DNA from: Escherichia coli
GTDB lineage: Bacteria > Pseudomonadota > Gammaproteobacteria > Enterobacterales > Enterobacteriaceae
DNA length: 64,000 bases
Assembly: GCF_050920415.1 (NCBI RefSeq)
Contig: NZ_CP169309.1
Strand: one strand, 5' to 3'
Below the pieces are notes generated by a model. The model ran no database searches, had not been told where the DNA came from, and saw only the letters and a list, made by a program, of their open reading frames with translations. Of the stretch, positions 43,794-47,204 are shown piece by piece (position 1 is the first letter of the stretch; each line of letters opens with the position of its first letter). The position numbers were made by a program, and so were the translations under genes.

Positions 43794-44258
43794 ATGAAGT
43801 TTGTTGCGCCAGAACAGGCACCGGAACAGGCGGAAATCATCAGAAATACGCCGTTCTGGCCTGATGTGGACCTGTCGGAGTTTCGCAGTGTCATGCGCAC
43901 TGACGGCACGGTGACGCAGCCGCGTTTAAAGCAGGTTGCGCTGTCGGCAATTTCGGAGGTCAACGCAGAGCTGTATGAGTTTCGCAGACGCCAGCAGATG
44001 CTGGGGTATGCCTCGCTGGCAGAAGTCCCGGCGGAACAACTGGACGGCAAAAGCGAGCGCATTCAGCACTATTTCAACGCGGTTTACTGCTGGGCACGCG
44101 CCATGCTCAACGAACGTTACCAGGACTATGACGCCACGGCATCCGGTGCGAAGCGAGGCGAGGAACTGGCGGAAGCAAGCGGTGATTTATGGCGTGACGC
44201 CCGCTGGGCCATCAGCCGGGTGCAGGATGCGCCGCACTGCACAGTGGAGCTTATCTGA
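43794..44258 (+). CDS. L: Head completion/stabilisation protein (P2 gpL-like)
   Basis: Start at MKFVAPEQAPEQAEIIRNTPFWPDVDL... with AGGAGA RBS (ORF-track Met at 43731 rejected). Confidence 0.8.
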   Translation: MKFVAPEQAPEQAEIIRNTPFWPDVDLSEFRSVMRTDGTVTQPRLKQVALSAISEVNAELYEFRRRQQMLGYASLAEVPAEQLDGKSERIQHYFNAVYCWARAMLNERYQDYDATASGAKRGEELAEASGDLWRDARWAISRVQDAPHCTVELI

Positions 44259-44461
44259 TGAAAGTGCGTGCGCATCAGTATGACACGGTGGACGCACTTT
44301 GCTGGCGTCATTACGGGCGCACGCAGGGTGTCACGGAGCAGGTACTGAAGGCAAATCCGGGGCTTGCCGAATACGGCCCCTTTTTACCTCACGGGCTGCA
44401 GGTGGAGCTGCCGGACATTCCGACAACCACCACCGTGCAGACCGTCCAGCTATGGGACTGA
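44258..44461 (+). CDS. X: Tail protein X (P2 gpX-like, LysM-like)
   Basis: 67-aa ORF MKVRAHQYDTVDALCWRHYGRTQGVTEQVLKANPGLAEYGPFLPHGLQVELPDI... Confidence 0.8.
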   Translation: MKVRAHQYDTVDALCWRHYGRTQGVTEQVLKANPGLAEYGPFLPHGLQVELPDIPTTTTVQTVQLWD

Positions 44462-44464
44462 ATT

Positions 44465-44680
44465 ATGACGCTTGAGCGAATCAGCGCCTTTATCACGTAT
44501 TGCATCGCCGTCGTGCTGGCCTGGCTGGGCGATTTGTCCATCAAGGATGCCTCAACGCTGGGCGGCCTGATGATTGGTGTGCTGATGCTGGCTATCAACT
44601 GGTACTACAAACACAAAGCCTACCAGCTTCTGCGCGACGGGCAGATTTCGCGGGAGGACTATGAATCCATCAATCGTTAA
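44465..44680 (+). CDS. Class II holin / pinholin-like protein (2 TMD)
   Basis: 71-aa ORF with two hydrophobic segments and charged C-terminus, immediately upstream of lysozyme. Confidence 0.6.
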   Translation: MTLERISAFITYCIAVVLAWLGDLSIKDASTLGGLMIGVLMLAINWYYKHKAYQLLRDGQISREDYESINR

Positions 44681-45176
44681 ACGCTGCCTTGTCGGAGCCG
44701 TGCTGGCTATTGCTGCCACGCTGCCGGGGTTTCAGCAGCTTCACACCTCCGTGGAGGGGCTGAAACTGATTGCCGATTACGAAGGTTGTCGTCTGCAGCC
44801 GTATCAGTGCAGCGCGGGTGTCTGGACCGACGGCATTGGAAATACGTCGGGCGTCATTCCCGGCAAAACAATCACGGAACGACAGGCAGCAGAAGGGCTT
44901 ATTTCCAACGTGCTGCGTGTGGAGCGGGCGCTGGAAAGGTGTGTGAAGCAACAGCCGCCGCAGAAGGTATATGACGCTACGGTGTCGTTTGCCTTCAACG
45001 TGGGAACGGGCAATGCCTGCAGTTCTACGCTGGTGAAATTGCTCAATCAGCGGCGCTGGGCAGAAGCGTGCCGACAGTTGCCGCGCTGGGTTTATGTGAA
45101 AGGTGTGTTTAATCAGGGGCTGGATAACCGCCGTGCGCGGGAGATGGCCTGGTGCCTTAAAGGAGCTGGATTATGA
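44661..45176 (+). CDS. Endolysin (lysozyme) with N-terminal SAR/signal-anchor-like segment
   Basis: 171-aa ORF MNPSIVKRCLVGAVLAIAATLP... followed by catalytic EGxxLxxYxD-like motif (VEGLKLIADYEGCRLQPYQ), T4 lysozyme-type. Confidence 0.8.
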   Translation: MNPSIVKRCLVGAVLAIAATLPGFQQLHTSVEGLKLIADYEGCRLQPYQCSAGVWTDGIGNTSGVIPGKTITERQAAEGLISNVLRVERALERCVKQQPPQKVYDATVSFAFNVGTGNACSSTLVKLLNQRRWAEACRQLPRWVYVKGVFNQGLDNRRAREMAWCLKGAGL

Positions 45177-45601
45177 CGCGTGCGCTGGCGGTAGTGGCGG
45201 CGCTGGCACTCGTTGCGCTGGGCTGGCAGTCGTGGCGGCTTAACAGCGCCAGCCACACCATCGAAACGCAGCGCGCGGCGCTGAAAAGTAAAGCGCACGA
45301 ACTAACGAAGAAAAATAGCCAGCTGATCAGTCTGTCCATTCTGGCTGAAACCAATAACAGGGAGCAGGCGCGGCTCTATGCCGAAGCAGAACAGACCAGC
45401 GCGCTGCTGAGACAACGACAACACCGGATCGAGGAACTGAAACGTGAGAACGAGGATTTACGCCGCTGGGCTGATACTCCTTTGCCTGCTGACATTATCC
45501 GGCTGCGGGAACGTCCGGCACTCACCGGAGGTGCAGCTTACCGTCAGTGGTTGTCCGCGAGTGACGCCGTGTCGGCTGGAGCAGGCAGCGCCGCGCACTA
45601 A
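45173..45601 (+). CDS. lysB: Spanin inner-membrane subunit (LysB/Rz-like)
   Basis: 142-aa ORF with N-terminal TMD and coiled-coil. Confidence 0.7.
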   Translation: MTRALAVVAALALVALGWQSWRLNSASHTIETQRAALKSKAHELTKKNSQLISLSILAETNNREQARLYAEAEQTSALLRQRQHRIEELKRENEDLRRWADTPLPADIIRLRERPALTGGAAYRQWLSASDAVSAGAGSAAH

Positions 45602-45734
45602 CGGTGATCTGAACGCATTGCTGGATGAAACGGAGGCCGCCTGGGCGGTCTGTGCAGACAAAGTGGACATGATTATTGCGTGTCAGGAGCGAAACAGTGA
45701 ACAAACCACAATCCCTGCGCCACGCCCTCAATAA
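45444..45734 (+). CDS. lysC: Spanin outer-membrane lipoprotein subunit (LysC/Rz1-like), overlapping lysB in another frame
   Basis: 96-aa ORF MRTRIYAAGLILLCLLTLSGCG... with lipobox LSGC and Pro-rich body. Confidence 0.6.
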   Translation: MRTRIYAAGLILLCLLTLSGCGNVRHSPEVQLTVSGCPRVTPCRLEQAAPRTNGDLNALLDETEAAWAVCADKVDMIIACQERNSEQTTIPAPRPQ

Positions 45735-46128
45735 AGCAGTGCCTTATGTCCGCAATAACCCGGATAAGCTGCATCTGTTTGTGGATAACGGTTCGCTGGT
45801 TGCCACGGGGGCCAGCTCCATGTCATGGGAGTACCGTTATACCCTCAACGTGGTGATTGAGGATTTCAGCGGCGACCAGAATCTGCTGATGGCCCCGGTT
45901 TTGCTGTGGCTGCGTGATAACCAGCCCGATGCCATCAATAATCCGGCGTTACGGGAAAAGTTATTCACCTTTGAGGTGGATATTCTGCGCAACGATGTCT
46001 GTGATATCAGCCTCAACCTGCAACTGACGGAACGTGTGCTGGTCAGCACTGACGGAAGTGTGTCGAGCGTTGAAGCAGTAGCGGAACCCGATGAACCTGA
46101 AGAAATGTGGACGGTGAAACGTGGCTGA
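45697..46128 (+). CDS. R: Tail completion protein (P2 gpR-like)
   Basis: GTG start at 45697 preceded by AGGAG; (M)NKPQSLRHALNKAVPYVRNNPDKLHLFVDNG... fits gpR. Confidence 0.7.
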   Translation: MNKPQSLRHALNKAVPYVRNNPDKLHLFVDNGSLVATGASSMSWEYRYTLNVVIEDFSGDQNLLMAPVLLWLRDNQPDAINNPALREKLFTFEVDILRNDVCDISLNLQLTERVLVSTDGSVSSVEAVAEPDEPEEMWTVKRG

Positions 46129-46573
46129 ACTGCAGAAGGTGGACGACTGGCTGAGTGCTTTGCTGGCGAATCTGGAACCAGCCGCAAGAAGCCGAATGAT
46201 GCGCCAGCTGGCGCAGGAACTGCGCCGGACACAGCAGCAGAATATCAGGATGCAGCGCAATCCAGATGGCAGCAGTTATGAGCCGCGCAGGGTAACAGCA
46301 CGCAGCAAGAAGGGGCGCATCAAACGTCAGATGTTTGCAAAGCTGCGCACCACAAAATACCTGAGAACTGCCGCCAGCGCGGATTCTGCCAGCGTACAGT
46401 TTGAAGGTAAGGTACAGCGTATTGCCCGTGTTCATCACTACGGTCTGCGCGATCGCGTCAGTCCAAAGGGGGGAGTCATTAAGTATCCATCCCGAAAATT
46501 GCTGGGTTTAAATGAACATACTGAAAATGAAGTAAGAGATTTACTTTTAAAGTATTTATTGATGAAAAATTAG
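46121..46573 (+). CDS. S: Tail completion protein (P2 gpS-like)
   Basis: 150-aa ORF overlapping R by 8 nt. Confidence 0.8.
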   Translation: MAELQKVDDWLSALLANLEPAARSRMMRQLAQELRRTQQQNIRMQRNPDGSSYEPRRVTARSKKGRIKRQMFAKLRTTKYLRTAASADSASVQFEGKVQRIARVHHYGLRDRVSPKGGVIKYPSRKLLGLNEHTENEVRDLLLKYLLMKN

Positions 46574-46578
46574 AATGT

Positions 46579-47109
46579 TTACGCTCTTAATAAACTTAAA
46601 TAACTTTTTATGCTTTGGCAAAAAGGGAAAAGGTCTATTTTAATTTTCCAGTTTTTTTTGTTTTGAACCCCAGAAGCAATAATAGAACCGTCCCAATATT
46701 TTATTCCATTTTTGCCGGTCTTTTTTGTTAACTCAAAACTTAATGCGTGAATAATTTTATTGCAGCATTCGCGTATAGAATCTTTAACATGACCATCTAT
46801 AACAAAAAGTATATTTTCATGTTCTTCAAATGCTTCTTTCTCAGGTGAGTAATCTGGGTTCCACTCATGTTCACTAGTGTCTTGGAGAATTCGTAGTTTT
46901 GTACAAAGGCTAATAAGATTGTTGCTAATGGTATATTCCAACCATCCGTTGTACGATAACTCCTCCATTTCAAATTCAGTTACTATAGAACCATCATATA
47001 CTTTCTGTGTGGAATATATACGCTGTAAATAAAATTCAGATGAACAGCATAATTGCTCAATTATTCTTGCGTGTTCTTCTATAGCGTAATAATCAATTGG
47101 ATGGCTCAT
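46579..47109 (-). CDS. Hypothetical protein, AT-rich cargo gene in the P2 orf30 position (between S and V, opposite strand)
   Basis: 176 aa from Met preceded by AAAGGT RBS (ORF-track start at 47148 would overlap gene V); strongly AT-biased. Confidence 0.55.
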   Translation of the reverse strand: MSHPIDYYAIEEHARIIEQLCCSSEFYLQRIYSTQKVYDGSIVTEFEMEELSYNGWLEYTISNNLISLCTKLRILQDTSEHEWNPDYSPEKEAFEEHENILFVIDGHVKDSIRECCNKIIHALSFELTKKTGKNGIKYWDGSIIASGVQNKKNWKIKIDLFPFCQSIKSYLSLLRA

Positions 47110-47204
47110 TCTTTTACCTTTCTTTGATTGGAATTGTATTTGTGTCATTTACCACACAAGGACGTATTGATGCCATAGATTCAAGGTCCGTGCAACCTAA
47201 CCCT

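What the first reader, a model, noticed from the sequence alone, without database searches (positions are those of the whole stretch)
44465..45734. Lysis cassette looks like a pinholin / SAR-endolysin / overlapping-spanin system rather than the canonical P2 Y-K arrangement
The lysozyme has a hydrophobic N-terminal segment (MNPSIVKRCLVGAVLAIAATLPGF) consistent with a signal-anchor-release domain. The preceding 71-aa 2-TMD protein fits a pinholin, and lysB/lysC overlap in Rz/Rz1 fashion. This is mosaicism within a P2-like late region.
Basis: inference. Interest (0 to 1): 0.4.

Follow-up and report, generated by a model that had tools for sequence, protein, structure and literature searches.

The report
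Fels-2-type lysis cassette in P2-like prophage
This P2-like prophage bursts its host with a small two-helix holin and a membrane-tethered lysozyme like that of phage P1, not with the holin and enzyme of phage P2; the arrangement is real but common and already described, so it is ordinary.

Summary
Window 44465-45734 encodes four genes:
- a 71-aa protein with two hydrophobic segments (Pfam HP1-holin family);
- a 171-aa GH24 lysozyme with an N-terminal signal-anchor-like segment;
- P2-type LysB and LysC spanins, in the overlapped arrangement.

The flanking genes (L, X, LysB, LysC, R, S) are 28-61% identical to P2 and 186. The holin and lysozyme show no similarity to P2 Y and K.

The lysozyme is specifically of the P1 Lyz type:
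- It has the E41-x8-C50-x5-T56 triad.
- It has seven cysteines, as do P1 Lyz and HP1 Lys, including one (C9) in the N-terminal segment. C9 is invariant in 15 selected homologues.
- Its AlphaFold model best matches active P1 Lyz (1XJT, TM 0.85).

"Pinholin" is plausible but untested. HP1 Hol, the family's namesake, behaves as one. However, TMD1 here is strongly hydrophobic, unlike phage 21 S, and there is no dual start.

None of this is new:
- The region is 99.8% identical to phage Cartapus and 80-94% identical at protein level to Fels-2.
- The holin-lysozyme pair occurs in 1028 of 5426 complete E. coli genomes.
- The Fels-2 annotation, the Klebsiella phage KP12 paper and the HP1 paper already say the same for relatives.

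The spanins are canonical P2. The replacement is shared by the whole clade and leaves no compositional trace.

The parts
44465..44680 (+). Class II (two-TMD) holin, 71 aa, HP1-holin family. TMD1 is residues 6-22 (nt 44480-44530). TMD2 is residues about 29-48 (nt 44549-44608). The C-terminal tail is charged. It is a probable pinholin, but hole size has not been tested.
   Evidence: ORF. Pfam PF16080 scores 36.7 bits (cut-off 28.8); PF04971 scores 23.2 bits (cut-off 26). PHROG 20 holin at 1.9e-26. Two hydrophobic segments only. RefSeq names it 'HP1 family phage holin'.
44661..45176 (+). SAR endolysin of the P1 Lyz type (GH24 muramidase), 171 aa. The start overlaps the holin stop by 20 nt, and GGGAGG lies 4 nt upstream of the ATG.
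   Evidence: PF00959 at 3e-40. Best PDB sequence match is P1 Lyz 1XJT at 3e-26. The AF2 model has pLDDT 94.4. Its best fold match is 1XJT, the active form, at TM 0.85, against 0.58 for the inactive form 1XJU.
44661..44732 (+). N-terminal signal-anchor-release (SAR) segment, residues 1-24. Basic residues K7 and R8 are followed by the uncharged stretch CLVGAVLAIAATLPGF. C9 (nt 44685-44687) is the predicted isomerising thiol.
   Evidence: Sequence. C9 is invariant in an alignment of 15 homologues at 35-57% identity. Of 19 distinct SAR-bearing homologues, 16 carry exactly one Cys in this segment. The segment is modelled with pLDDT 95-97, packed on the globular domain.
44781..44828 (+). Catalytic and regulatory motif E41-G-C43-x6-C50-x5-T56. 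Codons: E41 at 44781-44783, C43 at 44787-44789, C50 at 44808-44810, T56 at 44826-44828. Cys takes the place of the usual Asp, as in P1 Lyz (E42, C44, C51, T57).
   Evidence: Alignments, where E41, C43, C50 and T56 are invariant. Cys positions 9, 43, 50, 94, 120, 137, 165 compare with P1 13, 44, 51, 91, 118, 150, 178 and HP1 11, 49, 56, 96, 123, 155, 183.
45173..45601 (+). LysB, the inner-membrane spanin subunit (i-spanin), 142 aa. It has an N-terminal TMD (about residues 4-21) and a helical periplasmic domain.
   Evidence: TIGR03495 phage_LysB equivalog at 2.2e-52. PHROG 89 at 1.5e-46. 28% identical to P2 LysB, E 9e-14. Hydrophobic N-terminus.
45444..45734 (+). LysC, the outer-membrane lipoprotein spanin subunit (o-spanin), 96 aa from GTG 45444. 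The signal is MRTRIYAAGLILLCLLTLSGC, with lipobox LSGC and the lipidated Cys21 at nt 45504-45506. It lies in the +1 frame of lysB in the overlapped architecture.
   Evidence: NF038368 P2_Rz1 equivalog at 1.2e-36. Pfam LysC at 1.5e-15. 42% identical to P2 LysC from residue 1. Lipobox. The RefSeq start at 45486 leaves only 'LLTLSGC'.
44258..44461 (+). Left boundary: tail protein X. It is homologous to P2 X and is not a lysis gene.
   Evidence: PF05489 at 2e-34. 61% identical to P2 X.
45697..46128 (+). Right boundary: tail completion protein R (GTG start). It overlaps the lysC end by 38 nt.
   Evidence: PF06891 at 4e-47. 51% identical to P2 R.

Best explanation
This is the late-operon lysis cassette of a Fels-2/Cartapus-type P2-like prophage. 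It is built from four genes that attack the three envelope layers.

1. **Export and tethering (inferred from homology).** The 171-aa lysozyme is exported by Sec and stays tethered to the inner membrane by its uncleaved N-terminal SAR segment. In that state it is inactive. By analogy with P1 Lyz, the catalytic Cys50 is locked in a disulfide with Cys43, while Cys9 sits in the bilayer out of reach.
2. **Triggering (inferred).** The 71-aa two-TMD holin accumulates in the inner membrane. At a set time it triggers and collapses the membrane potential. It probably does so through small holes, as a pinholin, although hole size is untested.
3. **Activation (inferred).** Depolarisation lets the SAR segment leave the membrane. 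Cys9 attacks the Cys43-Cys50 disulfide, Cys50 is freed, the enzyme refolds with the SAR segment packed on the globular domain, and murein is degraded.
4. **Outer membrane (inferred from family).** LysB (inner membrane) and LysC (outer-membrane lipoprotein) form the spanin complex that removes the outer membrane, as in P2.

Shown here: gene anatomy, family assignments, motif and cysteine conservation, the predicted fold, and the distribution of the cassette.
For: - **Anatomy and families:**
- **Lysozyme closest to P1 Lyz.** Sequence match 3e-26. Fold match to 1XJT, the active form, at TM 0.85 over 173 columns, ahead of the full-length SAR endolysins RrrD and R21.
- **Motif and cysteines.** The E-x8-C-x5-T triad is present, and seven Cys mirror P1 Lyz and HP1 Lys.
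- **Conservation of the N-terminal Cys.** C9, E41, C43, C50 and T56 are invariant across 15 selected SAR-type homologues at 35-57% identity. Of 19 independent N-termini, 16 carry exactly one Cys. The binomial probability is about 1e-4 against an assumed, unmeasured 40% chance of a Cys occurring there.
- **N-terminal features.** Two basic residues are followed by a 16-residue uncharged stretch that is half Ala/Gly/Thr. This fits the published description of SAR domains (PMC9239132).
- **Holin.** Two TMDs. PF16080 above its cut-off. The gene overlaps the lysozyme gene by 20 nt.
- **Experimental precedent.** In the P2-like phage HP1, a member of the same Pfam holin family is paired with a P1-Lyz-like SAR endolysin. 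HP1 Hol killed cells without lysis or beta-galactosidase leakage, and virion release from induced H. influenzae was restrained by the SecA inhibitor sodium azide (PMC7312051).
- **Spanins.** Equivalog-level matches to P2 LysB and LysC, with a lipobox.
- **The cassette is in use.** Cartapus, 99.8% identical here, produces virions spontaneously from LF82 (PMC9928086).
Against: - No experiment exists for this protein set.
- Several positions in the N-terminal segment satisfy the -3/-1 rule for signal peptidase I, for example AIA|A after residue 18. SignalP-type tools also call HP1 Lys a signal peptide. Cleavage is therefore not excluded by sequence alone.
- The homologue alignment was hand-picked from full-length sequences. 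Three N-terminally short sequences that lack the Cys were left out as probable mis-called starts.
- Holin TMD1 is strongly hydrophobic. Its summed Hessa score is -0.56, against +6.49 for S21/EssD TMD1. The scale values were recalled from memory.
- Profile-profile links of the holin to the S21 and HP1 families are weak, at 46% and 27% probability.
- Many soluble GH24 homologues also carry the Cys-for-Asp triad. That motif alone is therefore not diagnostic of disulfide caging.
Confidence: 0.8

Rival explanations
1. The cassette is the same, but the 71-aa protein is a canonical large-hole class II holin rather than a pinholin. A SAR endolysin needs only depolarisation, so either kind of holin would serve it.
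For: - TMD1 is as hydrophobic as TMD1 of P2 Y or P1 LydA. It lacks the Gly/Ala/Ser-rich, SAR-like character of S21 TMD1.
- There is no dual-start antiholin.
- The protein scores below the Pfam cut-off for the phage 21 S family.
- P1 Lyz itself works with canonical holins LydA and LydC as well as with the pinholin LydD (PMC9025707).
Against: - In published cassettes, genes next to SAR-endolysin genes in the same operon are typically pinholins (PMC9025707; PMC9239132).
- HP1 Hol, the namesake of the Pfam family this protein passes, behaved as a pinholin (PMC7312051).
- TMD2 resembles S21 TMD2 locally, at 45% identity over 20 residues including the Gly and Asn positions.
Confidence: 0.3
2. The N-terminal segment of the lysozyme is an ordinary Sec signal peptide that is cleaved. 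The enzyme is then a free periplasmic lysozyme, held in check by some means other than membrane tethering.
For: Candidate -3/-1 cleavage sites lie in or after the hydrophobic core, for example AIA|A and LPG|F. Signal-peptide predictors score the HP1 homologue as a signal peptide.
Against: - A single Cys in this segment is invariant or nearly so across homologues that share only 35-57% identity. A discarded peptide would not conserve it.
- The total of seven Cys (three pairs plus one) matches P1 Lyz.
- AlphaFold places residues 11-26 with pLDDT 95-97 as part of the globular fold. The full-length model matches active P1 Lyz, which retains its SAR segment.
- There is no polar c-region before the candidate sites.
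Confidence: 0.07
3. The cassette is a decaying remnant in a defective prophage and no longer functions.
For: Cartapus virions are rare and no indicator host was found (PMC9928086).
Against: - All four ORFs are intact with conserved motifs.
- The pair is conserved at 95-99% identity in about 1000 E. coli genomes.
- Encapsidated Cartapus DNA was measured at 3.3e5 genomes/mL.
Confidence: 0.03

Closest known systems
Salmonella phage Fels-2 (Felsduovirus) and Escherichia phage Cartapus (Elveevirus) lysis cassettes
   Same: The gene order X-holin-lysozyme-lysB-lysC-R-S is the same. Cartapus is 99.8% identical in DNA. Fels-2 is 80-94% identical in all eight proteins. The Fels-2 record already notes '2 transmembrane domains; putative holin' and 'similarity to Lyz of P1'.
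   Different: Fels-2 has two small membrane-protein ORFs between the lysozyme and lysB, which the window lacks. The Fels-2 lysozyme is annotated from an internal start and so loses the first 12 residues, including the Cys.
Haemophilus phage HP1 hol-lys (pinholin plus SAR endolysin; PMC7312051)
   Same: HP1 is also a P2-like phage. Its holin is in the same Pfam family (PF16080). It has no dual start and its holin and lysozyme genes overlap. HP1 Lys has the same E-x8-C-x5-T triad and seven Cys, including one in the SAR segment.
   Different: - Direct similarity is low: holin BLASTP E 0.023 and hhalign 27%; lysozyme 33% identity.
- The HP1 cassette sits after the tail tube gene, not between X and R.
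- HP1 TMD1 is less hydrophobic.
Phage P1 Lyz (SAR endolysin activated by disulfide isomerisation; PDB 1XJT/1XJU)
   Same: Lyz is the best sequence and fold match. The residues correspond almost one for one: E41/C43/C50/T56 here against E42/C44/C51/T57 in P1. Both have a Cys in the SAR segment and seven Cys in total.
   Different: - Identity is 37%.
- The SAR Cys is at position 9, at the cytoplasmic end of the hydrophobic stretch, rather than mid-helix at position 13.
- The SAR core is shorter, at 16 residues.
- The lysozyme lacks the 11-residue insertion of P1 and HP1.
- In P1 the adjacent pinholin gene lydD follows lyz and is unrelated in sequence.
Phage 21 S21/R21 (prototype pinholin / SAR endolysin) and DLP12 EssD/RrrD
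   Same: Both have a 71-aa two-TMD holin followed by a GH24 SAR endolysin and then spanins. TMD2 resembles S21 TMD2. R21 and RrrD are the second and third best fold matches.
   Different: - The holin is below the PF04971 cut-off.
- TMD1 is not SAR-like.
- There is no dual start.
- R21 uses an E-D-T triad without a SAR Cys and is regulated by conformation, not by a disulfide.
Phage P2 / 186 lysis cassette (Y, K, lysA, lysB, lysC)
   Same: Position in the late operon, flanking genes, and the LysB/LysC overlapped spanins.
   Different: - Y is a 93-98 aa holin with three hydrophobic segments.
- K is a soluble lambda-R-like enzyme without an N-terminal hydrophobic segment.
- Neither shows significant similarity to the window proteins.
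- lysA is absent from the window.
Klebsiella phage KP12 lysis cassette (PMC9902359)
   Same: KP12 is about 95% identical in DNA. The paper already describes the lysozyme as structurally similar to P1 Lyz with a conserved SAR domain, together with P2-type overlapped spanins, and it looked for a pinholin partner.
   Different: KP12 carries the extra lysA-like gene. The paper favoured a different ORF from another cassette as the heptamer-forming pinholin candidate.

Membership tests
SAR endolysin (GH24 / T4-lysozyme-like) | GH24 muramidase domain with the catalytic triad E-x8-D/C-x5-T | tested here: met
   PF00959 at 3e-40. E41-x8-C50-x5-T56 is invariant in homologues. The triad definition is taken from PMC4640515.
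SAR endolysin (GH24 / T4-lysozyme-like) | N-terminal uncharged, weakly hydrophobic stretch rich in Gly/Ala/Ser/Thr, preceded by 1-3 basic residues | tested here: met
   K7 and R8 are followed by CLVGAVLAIAATLPGF, in which 8 of 16 residues are Gly/Ala/Thr. The criteria are as described in PMC9239132.
SAR endolysin (GH24 / T4-lysozyme-like) | The segment is not cleaved: the enzyme is membrane-tethered and then released on depolarisation or by a pinholin | not testable with these tools
   This needs immunoblots, fractionation and co-expression. Indirect support comes from the conserved Cys in the segment and from the segment being modelled as part of the fold.
P1 Lyz subclass (disulfide-regulated SAR endolysin) | Catalytic Cys in place of Asp, plus a partner Cys two residues after the catalytic Glu | tested here: met
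   C50 and C43 align with P1 C51 and C44.
P1 Lyz subclass (disulfide-regulated SAR endolysin) | A single Cys within the SAR segment that can isomerise the caging disulfide | tested here: met
   C9 is invariant in 15 selected homologues. Of 19 distinct N-termini, 16 carry exactly one Cys. That this Cys is the defining feature rests on recalled knowledge of Xu et al. 2005 and Kuty et al. 2010, which could not be re-read here.
P1 Lyz subclass (disulfide-regulated SAR endolysin) | Fold of the active form, with the SAR segment packed on the catalytic domain | tested here: met
   The AF2 model (pLDDT 94.4) best matches 1XJT at TM 0.85, against 0.58 for 1XJU.
P1 Lyz subclass (disulfide-regulated SAR endolysin) | Actual thiol-disulfide exchange upon release | not testable with these tools
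   This needs Cys mutants and redox trapping.
Phage 21 S-type pinholin (Pfam PF04971) | Sequence membership at the Pfam gathering score | tested here: not met
   23.2 bits against a cut-off of 26. hhalign to an S21/EssD alignment gives 45.6% probability.
Phage 21 S-type pinholin (Pfam PF04971) | Two TMDs | tested here: met
   There are two hydrophobic segments only, 6-22 and 29-48. Orientation is inferred from the charged C-tail and was not tested.
Phage 21 S-type pinholin (Pfam PF04971) | TMD1 is itself a weakly hydrophobic SAR domain that leaves the membrane | tested here: not met
   TMD1 has a summed Hessa score of -0.56 and a Gly/Ala/Ser/Thr fraction of 0.35. EssD/S21 TMD1 has +6.49 and 0.65. 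This tests composition only.
Phage 21 S-type pinholin (Pfam PF04971) | Dual-start motif giving an antiholin | tested here: not met
   There is a single ATG with no in-frame upstream start. The next Met is residue 36.
Pinholin (functional class) | Lethal holes too small to release a soluble endolysin | not testable with these tools
   This needs co-expression with lambda R or a leakage assay. The precedent is HP1 Hol (PMC7312051).
HP1 holin family (Pfam PF16080 / TCDB 1.E.7) | Sequence membership at the Pfam gathering score | tested here: met
   36.7 bits against a cut-off of 28.8. PGAP names it 'HP1 family phage holin'.
HP1 holin family (Pfam PF16080 / TCDB 1.E.7) | Direct relationship to HP1 Hol itself | tested here: inconclusive
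   BLASTP E 0.023. hhalign of shallow family alignments gives 26.9% probability.
P2 LysB/LysC overlapped two-component spanin | i-spanin: LysB equivalog with an N-terminal TMD | tested here: met
   TIGR03495 scores 176.9 bits against a cut-off of 92.75. Hydrophobic N-terminus.
P2 LysB/LysC overlapped two-component spanin | o-spanin: LysC equivalog with a lipoprotein signal and lipobox Cys | tested here: met
   NF038368 scores 124.7 bits against a cut-off of 27. The LSGC lipobox has its Cys at residue 21 when the GTG 45444 start is used.
P2 LysB/LysC overlapped two-component spanin | The o-spanin gene starts inside the i-spanin gene, out of frame, and ends beyond it | tested here: met
   +1 frame, 158-nt overlap, 133 nt beyond the lysB stop. 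The definition is from PMC6139136.
Canonical P2 Y holin / K endolysin | Sequence similarity to P2/186 Y and K | tested here: not met
   The best BLASTP alignments are short, with E 0.001-0.02 and 19-20 bits. K has no hydrophobic N-terminus.

The most novel reading that the evidence does not exclude
The 71-aa holin could be a pinholin that works differently from the phage 21 prototype.

- Its TMD1 looks like a stable membrane helix rather than a releasable SAR domain.
- It has no dual-start antiholin.
- In this lineage the lysA-like membrane protein carried by about three quarters of E. coli copies is missing.

Lysis timing would then rest on the holin alone. If so, this very common prophage cassette would be a minimal, antiholin-free pinholin/SAR system with a distinct triggering mechanism. 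The comparison of variants with and without lysA would be a natural experiment on what LysA does.
Probability: 0.25. Interest if true: 0.3.

Novelty: already known. Interest (0 to 1): 0.1.

Why it matters
It matters little as a discovery. The finding correctly recognises one of the two standard lysis modules of P2-like prophages in enterobacteria. This module is present in about 19% of complete E. coli genomes, against about 28% for the P2 Y-K module.

The practical value lies in annotation:
- The lysozyme should be labelled a P1-Lyz-type SAR endolysin.
- Its start must include the Cys-bearing N-terminus.
- lysC should start at the GTG that gives a full lipoprotein signal.

The variants with and without lysA offer a ready comparison for anyone studying lysis timing.

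Tried and rejected
- **Profile-profile comparison of the holin family.** I compared it with the S21/EssD and HP1 holin families. The alignments were shallow (Neff about 1.7) and the probabilities were 46% and 27%. This neither confirms nor excludes common ancestry. I rely on the Pfam scores instead.
- **PDB sequence search with the holin**. It returned only chance hits to photosystem helices.
- **Recent acquisition of the holin-lysozyme pair.** Rejected, because GC content is flat and identity to Fels-2 is uniform across the region.
- **Lipoprotein reading of the lysozyme N-terminus.** Rejected, because there is no lipobox before C9.
- **Primary papers on P1 Lyz and R21.** PMC2953681, PMC3075974 and PMC3848059 are not held. 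The Cys13/Cys44/Cys51 mechanism is therefore cited from memory of Xu et al. 2005 and Kuty et al. 2010.
- **Internal promoters or terminators in the cassette.** None beyond chance.
- **The AT-rich ORF downstream.** Pfam and PADLOC gave nothing.
- **Hessa hydrophobicity values.** These were entered from memory, so only the relative ranking should be used.
Full report
**What is there**

Window 44258-46573 is a stretch of the late operon of a P2-like prophage, all on the + strand. The genes in order are:

| Gene | Coordinates | Length | Main evidence |
|---|---|---|---|
| Tail gene X | 44258-44461 | 67 aa | PF05489 |
| Holin | 44465-44680 | 71 aa | PF16080; PHROG 20 |
| Lysozyme | 44661-45176 | 171 aa | PF00959 at 3e-40 |
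| lysB | 45173-45601 | 142 aa | TIGR03495 at 2e-52 |
| lysC | 45444-45734 | 96 aa from GTG | NF038368 at 1e-36 |
| Tail completion R | 45697-46128 | 143 aa | PF06891 |
| Tail completion S | 46121-46573 | 150 aa | PF05069, TIGR01635 |

The quoted N-terminus, MNPSIVKRCLVGAVLAIAATLPGF, is exact. Successive genes overlap by 20, 4, 158 and 38 nt. No promoter-like or terminator-like site beyond chance lies inside the cassette.

**Where it comes from and how common it is**

- The 1477-nt region is 99.8% identical to Escherichia phage Cartapus. Cartapus is the P2-like prophage of E. coli LF82 and is described as closely similar to Fels-2 (PMC9928086).
- It is about 95% identical to a large set of Klebsiella and Escherichia P2-like prophages.
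- The holin-lysozyme pair alone is found in 1028 of 5426 complete E. coli genomes. The P2 Y-K pair is found in 1498.
- tblastn finds the holin only in P2-like phages of Klebsiella, Salmonella (Fels-2, SopEPhi, RE-2010, SEN8), Yersinia, Erwinia and Escherichia. Some of these are already annotated 'holin class II | SAR endolysin'.

**Is it different from P2?**

Yes, but only in two genes.

- Against P2 and 186, the proteins L, X, LysB, LysC, R and S are 28-61% identical, with E-values from 1e-12 to 1e-47.
- Holin versus Y and lysozyme versus K give only short alignments, with E 0.001-0.02.
- P2 Y has three hydrophobic segments. P2 K has no N-terminal hydrophobic segment.
- Against Fels-2, all eight proteins are 80-94% identical, with no break in similarity.
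- GC content is flat at 57-60% across the cassette.

The replacement is therefore a property of a whole clade of Peduoviridae. It is not a recent mosaic event in this prophage.

The lysB/lysC pair is not a departure from P2 at all. lysC lies in the +1 frame, starts inside lysB and ends 133 nt beyond it. This is the 'overlapped' architecture, for which P2 is the textbook example; lambda Rz/Rz1 are 'embedded' (PMC6139136).

**The lysozyme**

- *Closest relatives.* The best match among solved structures is P1 Lyz (1XJT, 3e-26). R21 and RrrD follow at about 2e-17.
- *Catalytic motif.* The motif is E41-G-C43-x6-C50-x5-T56. This is the E-x8-C-x5-T variant, in which Cys replaces the usual Asp, as in P1 Lyz (E42/C44/C51/T57) and HP1 Lys (triad definition from PMC4640515).
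- *Cysteine pattern.* All three proteins have seven cysteines in corresponding places, one of them in the N-terminal hydrophobic segment: C9 here, C13 in P1 and C11 in HP1.
- *Wider conservation.* I searched 1.84 billion representative proteins and took the best 150. Nineteen had distinct N-termini combining a hydrophobic segment with the EGC...C motif. Sixteen of the 19 carry exactly one Cys in that segment. The three exceptions have shortened N-termini and look like mis-called starts.
- *Alignment.* In an alignment of 15 full-length members sharing 35-57% identity, C9 is invariant together with E41, C43, C50 and T56. This set was hand-picked from full-length sequences, which should be kept in mind.
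- *Predicted structure.* An AlphaFold model built on that alignment has mean pLDDT 94.4. Residues 11-26 score 95-97 and form two short helices packed on the globular domain.
- *Fold match.* The best PDB fold match is the active form of P1 Lyz (1XJT, TM 0.85 over the full length). The secreted inactive form (1XJU) reaches only 0.58. The full-length SAR endolysins RrrD and R21 come next.

A peptide destined to be cut off would not keep an invariant Cys or be modelled as part of the fold. I therefore read the segment as a SAR domain. I read the enzyme as regulated like P1 Lyz: the catalytic Cys is caged in a disulfide until the SAR Cys, freed from the membrane, isomerises it. That mechanism is recalled from Xu et al. 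2005 and Kuty et al. 2010, which I could not re-read.

The segment also fits the published description of SAR domains, namely 1-3 basic residues followed by a weakly hydrophobic stretch (PMC9239132).

Cleavage is not formally excluded. Several -3/-1 sites exist, and predictors call the HP1 homologue a signal peptide.

**The holin**

- It has exactly two hydrophobic segments, residues 6-22 and 29-48, and a charged C-terminal tail.
- It passes the Pfam cut-off for the HP1 holin family (36.7 bits against 28.8). It falls short for the phage 21 S family (23.2 bits against 26). PGAP names it 'HP1 family phage holin'.
- HP1 is itself a P2-like phage. Its Hol was shown to kill E. coli without lysis or beta-galactosidase leakage, and to be needed for phage release. 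Its Lys behaves as a SAR endolysin: it lyses E. coli on its own, and release of HP1 particles from induced H. influenzae was restrained by sodium azide, a SecA inhibitor (PMC7312051). That is the best support for the 'pinholin' reading.

Against an S21-like mechanism:
- TMD1 here is as hydrophobic as an ordinary TMD. Its summed Hessa score is -0.56 and its Gly/Ala/Ser/Thr fraction is 0.35. S21/EssD TMD1 has +6.49 and 0.65.
- There is no dual start.
- Profile-profile links to the S21 and HP1 families are weak, at 46% and 27%.
- TMD2 does resemble S21 TMD2, at 45% identity over 20 residues.

SAR endolysins can also be served by canonical holins, as P1 shows (PMC9025707). Hole size therefore remains an open experimental question.

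**Prior description**

- The Fels-2 record already says 'two transmembrane domains, putative holin' and 'similar to P1 Lyz'.
- The paper on Klebsiella phage KP12, whose cassette is about 95% identical in DNA, reports a P1-Lyz-like fold with a conserved SAR domain and P2-type overlapped spanins (PMC9902359).
- The HP1 paper demonstrates the pinholin/SAR pair in a P2-like phage.

**Mechanism, with status of each step**

1. *Inferred from homology.* Sec export of the lysozyme, with tethering by the SAR segment.
2. *Inferred.* The holin triggers and depolarises the membrane. Small holes are probable.
3. *Inferred; supported by conserved cysteines and the fold model.* The SAR segment is released, C9 attacks the C43-C50 disulfide, and the enzyme refolds to the active form.
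4. *Inferred from equivalog-level family membership.* The LysB-LysC spanin disrupts the outer membrane.

**Verdict**

The feature is real, correctly located and correctly read in outline. It is already known and very common. Interest is low.

Noticed in passing
window 45176/45173 junction; L002 2418-2795: The window lacks the lysA-like gene. This gene encodes a 125-aa multi-TMD protein in the same PHROG 162 as P2 LysA, and it sits between the lysozyme and lysB in relatives such as phage 500465-1 and KP12. In complete E. coli genomes the gene is present in 780. The direct lysozyme-lysB junction seen in the window is present in 233. Fels-2 has two small membrane ORFs at that position.
   Followed up: partly
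window 45444-45734; L003 2729-2977; L001; L002 3237-3353: lysC is poorly annotated in public records. RefSeq starts it at CTG 45486, which leaves 'LLTLSGC' and no usable lipoprotein signal. The Cartapus record has no lysC CDS at all. Phage 500465-1 annotates only a 117-nt fragment. The GTG at 45444 gives MRTRIYAAGLILLCLLTLSGC, which is collinear with P2 LysC.
   Followed up: yes
L006 2694-3206 (Fels-2): The Fels-2 endolysin is annotated from an internal start, giving 158 aa. The in-frame upstream sequence encodes MNPSIVKRCLVV..., so the deposited protein lacks the N-terminal part of the SAR segment and its conserved Cys.
   Followed up: yes
window 46579-47148, minus strand: An AT-rich island (32-35% GC against 55-60% in the flanks) carries a 189-aa ORF on the opposite strand between tail genes S and V. 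This is the position of the nonessential orf30 in P2. It has no Pfam or PADLOC match and matches only PHROG 18838 of unknown function. It looks like a moron of unknown role.
   Followed up: partly
PHROG 162 (P2 LysA family): PHROGs describes the LysA family as 'endolysin' although its members are multi-TMD membrane proteins. This produces records with two 'endolysin' genes side by side, for example in phage 500465-1 and in the P2 RefSeq record.
   Followed up: partly
homologues (P0046-P0150): Many GH24 lysozymes without any N-terminal hydrophobic segment also have Cys in place of the catalytic Asp (42 of 62). Often they also have the Cys two residues after the catalytic Glu (21 of 62 have both). 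The Cys-for-Asp triad is therefore not restricted to SAR endolysins.
   Followed up: no
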